Assembly: GCA_000002435.2 (NCBI GenBank)
Contig: CM018793.1
Length of the DNA stretch: 64,000 nucleotides
Direction: 5' to 3' (one strand)
Origin: Giardia intestinalis
Taxonomy: Eukaryota
Shown here in pieces: positions 14,158-17,100 of the stretch. A program made the position numbers and the translations under genes. A model generated the notes under the pieces. It searched no databases and had not been told where the DNA came from. It worked only from the letters and a program-made list of their open reading frames with translations. Positions within the stretch are counted from its first letter, which is position 1, and each line of letters begins with the position of its first letter.

Positions 14158-17100
14158 ACTGACGCCCGCCGTCATCACGTTCCTCCGCGGCTGGAAGGTC
14201 TTCGCAGACGGCGACGACGCGCACCGGCACTACCTCAACGCGGTTACGAAGGACGCGGCGCAGATCCACGGCGTCCAGTCTGCAGAGCCCGGCGAGATGC
14301 TCTACTGCTTCAACTGGGACCCGGTCTTCGGGGGCACTGAGAGCGACCCCGAGAACCCCCACAACGCGCTCTTCTCGTTCGGGACGATGTACGAACCCGT
14401 CTTCTTCTTCCAGATCCAGATCGTGCGCATGAAGGATGGCCAGCGGAAGTTCATCCACCGGCGCGGCGGCCTGGCCCCCTTCACGAACGACTCGTTCTTC
14501 GACCTCAACCGCTACCAGATCGAGCGGACAGGCGAAGGCTTTCGGAACAGCAAGGACACGTGCTTCCTCTACGCTCTCAAGCAGAGCGGGCAGCTGAACG
14601 ACGAGGAGATCAAGGCCGCGGCGCTCCACATCAACCAGGCGGCGGTCACGTTCGCGATGGTCGACGCGATCGGCAAGCAGCTCTTCATCTGCTTCCACAT
14701 GCACATGCCGGACAGGGTCGTCCTCCGGGGCGCACAGAAGGGCCGCAAGCTCCCGCCCGGCGTCGCACTCCGGAACATCCAGATAGGCTTCGACTTCAAC
14801 CACTACTACATCTTCGACGAGAAGCTCCCCTACAGCAAGGCGTACGTGAACCACGCGTCCGTGATGATGGAGCACAACGCGTACCCGGAGAACGCGAACG
14901 TCCGCGAGGTCAGCGTCCGGAACACCTTCCACCCGGAGACCCGGGAGCCGATGCAGAAGGTCGTCTTCGGCTACCACCGCGACGACGACCCCCACACGTG
15001 CACGAGCCGCGACCTCCTCCTCTCGCTCCACAAGCAGGGCCTCCTCCGCCCGATCCGCTCAGACGACCTCCTCGCCGTCAAGGAGTCCTTCATCCGCGAG
15101 GAACACTACGCGGAGGACAACCTCGAGTTCTGCGAGAACCAACTCAAGAAGATCGAGCCCAAGAAGAAGCAGGCCCCGCCGAAGGACGTCTGGTTCGCGG
15201 ACTTCGAGACGACGACCGACGGGGACCAGCACCACCCGTTCCTCCTCTGCTTCCACGGGGCGAACAATGTGACGGGGACTACTGGGCGAAGGACTACACA
15301 GCATCGGGGACATGGTCCAGCGGCCTTCCCGCCTCGCGACCTCAACCGGCCCCAGCTGGTTACTTCACAACCTCAACTACGACGGGGCCTTCGTCCTCCC
15401 GTACTTCGACGTCAAAAGGACAGCATCGTCACCCTCGGGGCGAGCAAGATCATCGCGTTCACATCCACATCCGACTGAGCGACGACCGGAAGAACAAGCC
15501 GATCCCGATCCACTTCCGGGACTCCTACGCCCTGATCACGGCGCCCCTCAGCAAGTTCGGGAAGATGTTCAACCTCGACGTCCACAAGGAGGTCCTCCCG
15601 TACTCGTTCTACACGCAGGAGAACGTCCGCAAGCTCGCAGAGGGCTACCGGCCGACCCTCGAGGAGTACCTCTCGTACGAGATGGAGAGCAGACGGACCG
15701 AGCTCGAGCAGCTGGTCCGCATGCTGCCGGGGATGCTCGTCGAGGACCGCGTCGATGCGCTCCGCTACGCCCACTACTACTGCGCGCGGGACTGTCACGT
15801 GCTCAAGGAGGGCGTCCTCCGCTTCCGGCAGCAGCTCCTCGAGGTCACCGGGATCGACGCGTTCACGTCCATGACTCTCCCGAGCGTCGCGTACAACTAC
15901 CTCATCAACGAGAAGTGCTTCGAGGGCTGCTTCAACCTCAACACGGCTCCGCTTCTCTTCGTGCGCCAGTGCGTGACGGGCGGGCGCTGCATGCTCCGGA
16001 ACAACGAGAAGCAGTACGTCGAGGGCGAGATCATGGACTTCGACGCGGTCTCCCTGTACCCGTCCGCAATGGCGCGCATCTACACCCTCAAGGGCCACCC
16101 GAAGGTCGTCGACCCCGAGAAGCACGACCTCGGCTGGCTCCTCCGCCAGGACGGCTGCTTCCTCGAGATAGACATTCAGATCGTCCCGAAGACCCTCGAC
16201 TTCCCCCTCATCAACCGCCAGACGGAGAAGGGCCGCCACTTCTCAAACGAGCCAGGCCCGATGTTCGCGGACAACATCACGATCGAGGACATCATCGAGT
16301 ACCACAAGGTCCCGATGAACCGAATCCGCGTCCTCCGGGGCTACTACTACGACGAGGGGAAGAACTTCGCCATCCAGACCGTTATCCGGAAGCTCTTCGA
16401 TACGCGCCTCAAGTTCAAGGCGGAGGGCAACCCCCTTGAGAGCATCTACAAGCTCATCATGAACAGCTGCTACGGGAAAAGCATCCTCAAGCCCGTCTTC
16501 AAGCGGATGAACACCGTCGACCGGGCCGGGCTCGAGCGGGAGCTCCTCGACAACTCCGCCGACATCCTCTGCTGGGAGCCGCTCTACGACGGCGGCCGCT
16601 TCCTCCTCAAGCAGAGCCGCCCGCTCCTCATGGCGAACAGCTTCCCGACGTTCGGCGTCCAGGTCCTCTCGATGAGCAAGCGCATCATGACGGAGGTGAT
16701 GGCAACGGCCCAGGACCACGCGCTCCCGATCTACTACACGGACACCGACAGCATCCACATCGACAAGCGGTCAATAGAGCCGCTCCGGAACTACTTCCAC
16801 GCGCGCTTCCACCGCGAGCTCATCGGCAAGAACCTCGGCCAGTTCCACTCGGACTTCCCCGACAGCCCCTCCGGCGAGATGTTCGTCAGCCGCTTCTTCG
16901 TCGGCGTCGGCAAGAAGGCGTACCTCGACATCCTCCAGGACAGCCAGGGCCACATGAGCTACCACGCGCGCCTCAAGGGCATCCCCGAGCAGGCGATCCT
17001 CAACGAGGCCCGCCAGCGCTGCGCCCAGAACTTCCTCGGCGGGCTCTACAACCTCTACGCCGACCTCTACAACGGCGTCCCCCAGACCTTCAACCTCATC

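What the first reader, a model, noticed from the sequence alone, without database searches (positions are those of the whole stretch)
15270..15480. Dense cluster of about 10 single-nucleotide deletions confined to 200 bp of polB-B
Outside this patch copy B keeps an open frame for about 2.8 kb with all catalytic motifs. Inside it, at least 10 one- or two-nucleotide deletions relative to copy A (for example 'gggacgtactgg' becomes 'gggactactgg', 'gtcaagaagg' becomes 'gtcaaaagg') destroy the ExoII region. The same ExoII segment is the only part of polB retained, again with indels, in fragment C (20340-20460). Possible causes are a local sequencing or consensus error in a collapsed repeat, a gene-conversion tract from the degraded copy C, or targeted inactivation.
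Basis: seen in the sequence. Interest (0 to 1): 0.5.

Follow-up and report, generated by a model that had tools for sequence, protein, structure and literature searches.

The report
Probable assembly-error patch in Giardia polB pseudo-copy
Ten missing bases that break the second DNA-polymerase copy in this Giardia region are really in the sequence, but they most likely come from building one consensus out of two slightly different templates, because an older gene model of the same strain reads straight through.

Summary
Relative to copy A (7160-10756), copy B (about 14135-17229) lacks 10 nt in 9 events between 15280 and 15463. There is no other unpaired indel in 3.08 kb.

The window is Giardia intestinalis sub-assemblage AI. 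Copy A's protein is identical to XP_001707488.1/KAE8305704.1 of strain WB. Restoring the 10 bases gives an open 1025-codon frame. From its first Met this frame matches the older WB RefSeq model XP_001707491.1 (980 aa) at 978 of 980 residues, and both differences lie inside the patch. So an independent Sanger-era assembly of the same strain had copy B intact.

The lesion does not look like natural decay:
- There are nine deletions against one substitution.
- None of the eight homopolymers is touched.
- Six of the nine events sit exactly on nucleotides where the B-related lineage (L001) differs from A (p about 0.002).
- All events lie in an A-like conversion tract.

This fits base drop-out where a long-read consensus is built from two templates (alleles or paralogues). 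Short-read patching could not repair it.

Gene conversion from fragment C is rejected, because no indels are shared and identity is about 78%. Targeted inactivation has no support. I could not inspect reads, so real deletions remain possible (about 15%).

The parts
15270..15480 (+). The patch. It holds 9 deletion events (10 nt) relative to copy A at 15280, 15298, 15319, 15329, 15340, 15361, 15366, 15416 and 15463. The N-terminal frame stops at 15476-15478.
   Evidence: Global and local alignments. Frame translations.
14135..17229 (+). polB copy B. It is 5'-truncated and lacks the first ~165-172 codons of A. Apart from the patch it is an open frame with all the Exo and Pol motifs checked (ExoI-III, motifs A-C, KxY).
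   Evidence: It equals XP_001707491.1 (P0051) at 978/980 residues once the 10 nt are restored.
7160..10756 (+). polB copy A. It is intact at 1198 aa, hits PF03175 (DNA_pol_B_2), and is identical to Giardia intestinalis WB XP_001707488.1 / KAE8305704.1.
15184..15560 (+). The tract in which B is nearly identical to A (13 substitutions in 377 bp; dS 0.06-0.09 against 0.32 gene-wide). The linker part, 15273-15345, is A-like and not like the B-related lineage L001, which marks it as an A-to-B conversion tract.
15260..15272 (+). A B-specific substitution cluster (GCG..T..G) just 5' of the first deletion. Its Ala codon is also present in the older gene model P0051 and in L001.
15463..15475 (+). The 3' edge of the patch. 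It has one deletion plus three transitions relative to A (CAT>CAC, GTC>ATC, CGG>CGA). The older model P0051 has Val here where the window encodes Ile.
20360..20444 (+). Fragment C, a remnant of the ExoII segment (polB residues ~570-600). It is about 77-80% identical to A and B and shares none of B's deletions.
19818..20234 (+). Fragment C's copy of the region upstream of B (it matches 13699-14164 at 72%). This shows that C descends from a B-type unit that was already truncated.
17232..18293 (-). Deoxynucleoside kinase gene of the B unit. It is 46% aa identical to the A-unit kinase (10763-11794) and 76% identical to that of L001. An exact copy occurs in 20 or more short-read assemblies.

Best explanation
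The ten missing bases are most likely not in the organism's DNA. [quoted passage not shown]

What is shown:
- The window is Giardia intestinalis AI (WB-type).
- Copy B lies in a tandem arrangement of two related Maverick/Polinton-like units.
- A short A-to-B conversion tract makes B nearly identical to A over about 380 bp.

What is inferred:
- Reads from two slightly different templates were piled together at this tract. The templates could be converted and unconverted alleles of the tetraploid genome, or a further paralogue elsewhere.
- At a site where half the reads carry one base and half another, a maximum-likelihood long-read consensus finds it cheaper to omit the base. Every read then shows a cheap insertion, instead of half the reads showing an expensive mismatch. 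This yields 1-nt deletions at the discordant sites.
- The later short-read repair step accepted a change only with at least 50% support for one alternative from at least 10 mapped reads. It could not fix sites where two different inserted bases compete. Nor could 75-nt reads align across indels spaced 5-50 nt apart, especially when a perfect match exists in copy A.

On this reading the true copy B is an uninterrupted but 5'-truncated ORF, as in the older gene model.
For: (1) Independent assembly. P0051 = XP_001707491.1, 'DNA polymerase, putative [Giardia lamblia ATCC 50803]', is 980 aa. It equals the window's copy B with the 10 nt restored at 978/980 residues, and both differences lie inside the patch. 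Copy A is 100% identical to the WB protein.

(2) The window is otherwise error-free against independent Illumina contigs. It is 100% identical over 1-7536, 10609-13705, 17082-20387, 23432-35077 and 29366-36898. The anomaly is therefore strictly local.

(3) The signature is unnatural. Between 15280 and 15463 there are 9 deletions, 1 substitution and 0 insertions, against about 18 substitutions expected at the gene-wide rate.

(4) It is not a homopolymer error. None of the eight runs of 3 nt or more in the patch is altered, and 6 of the 9 events remove bases that are not part of a longer run.

(5) Six of the nine events fall exactly on nucleotides where L001, the closest B-lineage relative, differs from A. 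There are 29 variable sites in 214, giving a permutation p = 0.0016. At event 5 the retained base is L001's state.

(6) All events lie inside the one tract where B is A-like.

(7) Published pipeline. The current WB reference was built from PacBio RS II reads with HGAP3 and Quiver. [quoted passage not shown]

(8) Published precedent. In a collapsed PacBio assembly of T. brucei, nearby allelic variants caused wrong read alignments and introduced INDEL errors. 'Alt1/Alt2' error sites were 98% indels or complex variants and truncated ORFs (PMC8445201).

(9) XP_001707491.1 survives only in a EukProt copy, while A carries current NCBI accessions. This suggests that the current annotation no longer calls B a protein.
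Against: - I could not see a single read or the DNA of any other assembly across the patch. All attempts returned short-read contigs that break at A/B-shared 31-mers, or nothing at all.
- The assembly of origin is inferred, not known.
- At 200x coverage Quiver is normally very accurate, and the authors say they double-checked discordant gene models.
- If a second template were fully L001-like, about 29 discordant sites would be expected, not 9-13. The second template therefore has to be a mosaic that I have not observed.
- Three of the nine events are at sites invariant in L001 and L010.
- Copy B is already 5'-truncated, so there is no selective reason for it to stay intact. A related copy in another lineage (L036) carries a real-looking 10-nt deletion nearby.
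- The older Sanger model could in principle be the chimeric one.
Confidence: 0.72

Rival explanations
1. The deletions are real and arose as one complex event tied to the A-to-B gene conversion. A heteroduplex formed between A-type and ancestral B-type strands. Mismatched bases were excised, for example by a glycosylase leaving abasic sites, and were bypassed or ligated with loss of one nucleotide. The result is -1 lesions at former mismatch positions, which inactivated an already truncated copy.
For: The events lie inside the A-like conversion tract. Six of nine sit on lineage-variable nucleotides. They are not at homopolymers. The current annotation apparently treats B as non-coding. B is 5'-truncated and so free to decay. 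A related copy, L036, is genuinely broken close by.
Against: To my knowledge, no repair pathway or polymerase is known that yields about 5% single-base deletions with almost no substitutions. Known conversion-associated mutagenesis is orders of magnitude rarer and is rich in substitutions and homopolymer errors. The older assembly of the same clone has the frame intact. The rest of A and B is identical at the protein level between the two data sets, so the lines have barely diverged.
Confidence: 0.1
2. The deletions are real but ordinary pseudogene decay of a dead, truncated copy, accumulated one at a time.
For: B lacks its first ~165-172 codons and its start. Fragment C shows that units of this type do decay.
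Against: Nine indels fall in 184 bp and none in the other 2.9 kb (p about 1e-9). There is 1 substitution against 9 indels, where neutral decay gives many more substitutions than indels. There is no stop codon anywhere in 1025 codons once the bases are restored. A-versus-B dN/dS is 0.22. The older model is intact.
Confidence: 0.05
3. The patch was copied from a degraded donor. The donor would be either fragment C or an unseen decayed polB copy elsewhere in the genome.
For: Short-read contigs from several runs all end at window 7536, where the window has no internal repeat. This implies at least one further polB-related copy outside the window. C overlaps the patch (20360-20444 matches 15344-15433).
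Against: C shares none of the deletions and is only 77-80% identical. Any donor would have to be about 99% A-like in substitutions yet carry nine deletions, which merely moves the same puzzle elsewhere.
Confidence: 0.03
4. The patch is ordinary random residual long-read error. It would be an unpolished stretch, contig-end sequence or gap-fill sequence, unrelated to template heterogeneity.
For: The errors are deletions only and are strictly local. They lie in the tract where short reads map equally well to copy A, so polishing would fail. PBJelly gap filling and contig stitching were used in the published pipeline.
Against: Residual long-read consensus errors concentrate in homopolymers, yet all eight runs here are intact. 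The coincidence with lineage-variable sites (p = 0.0016) is not expected from random error. Later Quiver rounds at 200x should have removed random errors.
Confidence: 0.1

Closest known systems
Collapsed-allele or collapsed-paralogue consensus artefacts in PacBio-era protist assemblies (Trypanosoma brucei Lister 427 v9; Cosentino et al. 2021, PMC8445201)
   Same: Apparent frameshifts truncate ORFs. The error sites are almost all indels or complex variants where reads support two alternative alleles and neither is the assembled one. The cause is nearby allelic variants that shift read alignments. The ORF is restored when alleles are separated.
   Different: Here the evidence is indirect: an older gene model plus the site pattern, with no reads. 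The density (9 events in 184 bp) is high. The second template may be a paralogue rather than an allele, because Giardia WB has very low allelic heterozygosity overall (0.03%, PMC7000408).
Protein-primed family-B DNA polymerases of Maverick/Polinton elements in parasitic protists (Kapitonov & Jurka 2006 and Pritham et al. 2007, as cited in PMC3511435)
   Same: Copies A and B hit PF03175. They carry a long N-terminal extension and the ExoI-III and Pol A/B/C motifs. Giardia polBs are already grouped with Polinton/Maverick polymerases in the literature.
   Different: No capsid, ATPase or protease gene was recognised in the ORFs scanned. There is only a sub-threshold rve hit just left of the window. 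The neighbours are a deoxynucleoside kinase, a coiled-coil protein, and RING and ankyrin proteins.
Conversion-associated mutagenesis during double-strand-break repair (yeast, Hicks et al. 2010; cited from my own knowledge, not checked here)
   Same: Mutations cluster inside a gene-conversion tract and include -1 frameshifts.
   Different: The reported rates are about 1e-5 per bp or lower. The frameshifts occur in homonucleotide runs and are accompanied by substitutions and template switches. None of that matches 9 non-homopolymer deletions in 184 bp.

Membership tests
Protein-primed family-B DNA polymerase (Pfam PF03175, DNA_pol_B_2) | Significant match to the family profile | tested here: met
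   Copy A scores E = 5e-37 and 128 bits against a cut-off of 25.8. Copy B is 88% aa identical to A.
Protein-primed family-B DNA polymerase (Pfam PF03175, DNA_pol_B_2) | ExoI (DxE), ExoII (Nx2-3F/YD), ExoIII (Yx3D), motif A (Dx2SLYP), motif B (Kx3NSxYG), motif C (YxDTDS) and KxY are present | tested here: met
   All are readable in copy B's translation (FADFETT, NLNYDGAF, YCARDCHV, DFDAVSLYPS, KLIMNSCYG, YTDTDS, KKAY). In the window as given, ExoII is out of frame with both flanks.
Protein-primed family-B DNA polymerase (Pfam PF03175, DNA_pol_B_2) | One continuous ORF that includes the N-terminal (terminal-protein-like) region | tested here: not met
   Copy B lacks A's first ~165-172 codons and is frameshifted in the window. 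The older model P0051 is continuous but starts at an internal Met.
Maverick/Polinton element | Retroviral-type (rve) integrase next to the pPolB | tested here: inconclusive
   A 342-aa ORF about 4 kb left of the window (L023:11396-12424) hits PF00665 at E = 5.9e-4 and 20.5 bits, below the 32.6-bit cut-off.
Maverick/Polinton element | Double-jelly-roll capsid, packaging ATPase and adenovirus-type protease | tested here: not met
   Pfam scans gave no such hit among the ORFs scanned in the element region of the window and in related contigs. Sensitive structure-based searches were not run.
Maverick/Polinton element | Terminal inverted repeats and target-site duplication | not tested
   The element's ends lie outside the window or were not defined.
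Neutrally decaying pseudogene | Lesions (stops and indels) scattered along the gene and accompanied by substitutions; dN/dS near 1 | tested here: not met
   All 9 indels fall in 184 bp. There is no stop in 1025 codons after repair. There is 1 substitution in the patch. dN/dS is 0.22.
Consensus artefact at discordant sites of a collapsed long-read assembly | An independent assembly or gene model of the same strain lacks the indels | tested here: met
   P0051 (XP_001707491.1) reads through and matches at 978/980 residues.
Consensus artefact at discordant sites of a collapsed long-read assembly | The indels sit at positions that differ between the candidate templates, not at homopolymers | tested here: met
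   Six of nine events are at A-versus-L001 variable nucleotides, p = 0.0016. None of the 8 homopolymers is hit. L001 is only a proxy for the second template.
Consensus artefact at discordant sites of a collapsed long-read assembly | Read pile-ups show insertions of two alternative bases (Alt1/Alt2) at each site | not testable with these tools
   No access to reads. Short-read contigs break at A/B-shared 31-mers.
Repeat-targeted genome defence (RIP-like) | Both repeat copies are mutated, along the whole duplicated length, with a C-to-T transition bias | tested here: not met
   Only B is affected, only over 184 bp, and by deletions rather than transitions.

The most novel reading that the evidence does not exclude
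The deletions are real and mark former mismatches of an A x B heteroduplex. If so, Giardia would process mismatches in a gene-conversion intermediate by removing the mismatched nucleotide and sealing with loss of one base. That would be a previously undescribed mutational signature, and it would inactivate converted paralogues in a single event.
Probability: 0.07. Interest if true: 0.65.

Novelty: not a real feature. Interest (0 to 1): 0.15.

Why it matters
If the patch is an artefact, the reference sequence wrongly turns one of Giardia's two Maverick-type protein-primed DNA polymerase genes into a pseudogene. Anyone counting or studying these genes, or using frameshifts as evidence of decay, would be misled. 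The case also illustrates a specific failure mode: single-base drop-outs where two near-identical templates are collapsed. This mode can be recognised from sequence alone, because the indels avoid homopolymers and coincide with lineage-variable sites. If the deletions are real, they would point to an unknown mutagenic process linked to gene conversion. That would be interesting, but I judge it unlikely.

Tried and rejected
(a) Gene conversion from fragment C. A three-way alignment shows no shared indel and about 78% identity, so this is rejected.

(b) Search of 5.8 billion proteins with the as-is six-frame translation of the patch. The aim was to catch short-read contigs carrying the deletions. 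Nothing was found. This is uninformative, because short partial products appear not to be in the collection.

(c) Exact look-ups of seven possible gene calls on broken copy B. None is in the collection.

(d) Fetching another assembly's DNA through neighbouring genes (ankyrin, dNK-B, 958-aa, 259-aa, TBCC). Only Illumina/Logan contigs came back, and they stop at repeat boundaries: window 7536, 13705, 17082, 20387 and 23340/23432. None crosses the patch.

(e) Pattern scan of JGI metagenome contigs that allowed either the intact or the deleted version gave no match. A scan of IMG/VR with copy A also gave no match.

(f) Paper search for the protein accessions gave no hit.

(g) The homopolymer-error explanation was considered and set aside, because no homopolymer is affected.

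(h) The low A-B divergence of the tract is not only due to conversion. The ExoII core is conserved at the nucleotide level across the family. The conversion claim therefore rests on the variable linker 15273-15345, where B follows A and not L001.

Full report
**What is there**

The window is nuclear DNA of Giardia intestinalis. It has long intronless ORFs, including a VSP (PF03302, 54008-60238), a class-I Glu/Gln-type tRNA synthetase, a 26S proteasome ATPase and an Spt6-like SH2 protein. The protein of polB copy A (7160-10756, PF03175) is identical over 1198 aa to XP_001707488.1/KAE8305704.1 of strain WB, ATCC 50803. Copy B aligns to A from A codon about 165-172 to the stop, with 14160-17236 matching 7677-10763 at 88.9% nt identity.

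A global alignment shows nine unpaired deletion events (10 nt) in B at 15280, 15298, 15319, 15329 (2 nt), 15340, 15361, 15366, 15416 and 15463. Every other gap is a compensated pair within a few bases. The clustering is far beyond chance, at about 1e-9. Putting A's bases back gives an open 1025-codon frame with all the exonuclease and polymerase motifs checked.

**Context**

A and B are not a recent duplication.
- The kinase genes downstream are only 46% identical to each other. Kinase A is 84% identical to that of contig L003, and kinase B is 76% identical to that of contig L001.
- Two related elements of different lineages therefore sit in tandem. A third, fragment C, is a degraded copy of a B-type unit: 19818-20234 matches B's upstream region, and 20360-20444 covers polB residues 570-600 only.
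- The same gene order occurs on metagenome and SRA-derived contigs (L001, L003, L010, L035). That order is an 809-aa ORF, a coiled-coil ORF, polB, a kinase, a small ORF, a ~200-aa ORF and, on the A-type contigs, an ankyrin ORF.
- A-versus-B dN/dS is 0.22. This probably reflects divergence before integration and says little about present function.
- B lacks the first ~165-172 codons of A.

**The tract**

Across B 15184-15560 the two copies are almost identical, with dS of 0.06-0.09 against 0.32 overall. Part of this is family-wide conservation of the ExoII core. In the variable linker (15273-15345), however, L001 differs from A at about 18 of 90 positions, whereas B differs at one. B is otherwise closer to L001 than to A, with 272 versus 341 differences. 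This is an A-to-B conversion tract, and all nine deletions lie in or next to it.

**Rejecting C as donor**

In the three-way alignment C has A's length at every deletion site it covers, and it is only 77-80% identical.

**Key evidence**

The 90% cluster that contains copy A also contains P0051 = XP_001707491.1, 'DNA polymerase, putative [Giardia lamblia ATCC 50803]', 980 aa. It starts at the Met encoded at 14297. It is identical to the repaired copy B at 978 of 980 residues, and the two differences (M/I and V/I) both lie inside the patch. A plain ORF model of 980 aa can only come from DNA without the frameshift.

P0051 is held only through EukProt, whereas copy A carries current NCBI accessions. 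This suggests that the current annotation no longer calls B a protein (inference). Elsewhere the window is 100% identical to independent Illumina contigs over more than 25 kb, including both element units. The discrepancy is therefore confined to the patch.

**Nature of the lesion**

- Between the first and last deletion there is one substitution and no insertion. About 18 substitutions would be expected at the gene-wide rate. Natural decay gives the opposite ratio.
- None of the eight homopolymers of 3 nt or more in the patch is altered, so this is not the usual long-read homopolymer error.
- Six of the nine events remove exactly a nucleotide at which L001 differs from A. There are 29 such sites in 214, and the permutation p is 0.0016. 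With L010 added to the variable set, p is 0.04.
- At event 5 the base that remains is L001's.
- Five or six of the deleted bases are third-codon-position G or C.

The deletions therefore mark sites where an A-like and a B-lineage-like template would disagree.

**Mechanism proposed**

A long-read consensus was built from two templates. These could be converted and unconverted alleles of the tetraploid genome, or a further paralogue. Illumina contigs from several runs all stop at window 7536, where the window has no internal repeat, which implies another copy elsewhere.

With single-molecule error models, omitting a base costs every read one cheap insertion. Keeping it costs half the reads a rare mismatch. 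Drop-outs therefore arise at discordant sites (inference from general knowledge of these models).

The published WB pipeline used PacBio RS II reads, HGAP3 and Quiver. [quoted passage not shown] Two competing inserted bases, indels 5-50 nt apart, and a perfect alternative target in copy A would all defeat that repair.

The same class of artefact has been documented for a collapsed PacBio assembly of T. brucei. It involved nearby allelic variants, misaligned reads, 'Alt1/Alt2' indel errors and truncated ORFs (PMC8445201).

**Weaknesses**

- I saw no reads and no DNA of another assembly across the patch, and all routes failed.
- The assembly of origin is inferred.
- The second template is not observed, and it cannot be simply L001-like, because about 29 discordant sites would then be expected.
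- Three events are at sites invariant in the relatives.
- B is truncated and free to decay. A related copy (L036, Illumina-derived) has a clean 10-nt deletion between GACC repeats just after ExoI. That lesion shows what a real one looks like here, but it also shows that such copies do die.

**Verdict**

- I put about 0.72 on the discordant-template consensus artefact and about 0.10 on plain residual assembly error. Together that is about 0.8 that the deletions are not real.
- I put about 0.15-0.18 on real deletions. Of this, about 0.07 is the interesting version, in which -1 lesions form at heteroduplex mismatches.

The finding is of low general interest. It has practical value as a flag on the reference sequence, and as an example of how to recognise this artefact from sequence alone.

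Noticed in passing
window 1-23400, extending beyond the left edge (L023): A GC-rich (~60% against ~50%) block holds two tandem units plus a degraded third unit of a polB-kinase element. The gene order is conserved on SRA- and ENA-derived contigs up to 42.7 kb (L001, L003, L010, L035). About 4 kb left of the window a 342-aa ORF gives a sub-threshold rve integrase hit (E = 5.9e-4). No capsid, ATPase or protease was recognised by Pfam. There was no match in IMG/VR.
   Followed up: partly
window 7536, 13705, 17082, 20387, 23340/23432: Short-read (Logan) contigs from many independent runs all end at the same coordinates. 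At 7536 and 20387 the window has no internal 31-mer repeat. Further copies of parts of this element must therefore exist elsewhere in the genome.
   Followed up: partly
window 10763-11794 (-) versus 17232-18293 (-): The two deoxynucleoside-kinase genes are only 46% identical, while the adjacent polB genes are 88% identical. Kinase A groups with L003 (84%) and kinase B with L001 (76%). Units A and B are therefore different element lineages, not a simple tandem duplication.
   Followed up: yes
L036:200-260 (Logan SRR21773975): A related polB (82% to B) has a clean 10-nt deletion (GACGGGGACC) between GACC repeats just after the ExoI motif, which shifts the frame. Its ORF restarts at the Met of the ExoI-ExoII linker (P0013, 633 aa).
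   Followed up: partly
P0055 / P0056 (ENA contig of 7076 bp): An A-type polB on a metagenome contig is split into 486-aa and 706-aa ORFs near residue 490. This is another broken copy or another assembly frameshift.
   Followed up: no
window 7094-10375 (-), 7708-10062 (+), 14156-15031 (-), 15312-16439 (+): Very long ORFs (up to 1093 aa) run antisense or out of frame through both polB copies. They are a by-product of the GC-rich, stop-poor codon usage and are not evidence of genes.
   Followed up: no
window 12840-13679 (-): This is an ankyrin-repeat ORF with internal ~186-nt repeats (12955-13582). Its exact protein was found in only about three SRA runs, whereas neighbouring genes occur in dozens. 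It is either variable between isolates or hard to assemble from short reads.
   Followed up: no
window 13699-14164 and 19818-20234: The non-coding stretch upstream of truncated copy B is duplicated (72%) upstream of fragment C. The 5' truncation of polB therefore predates the B/C duplication.
   Followed up: partly
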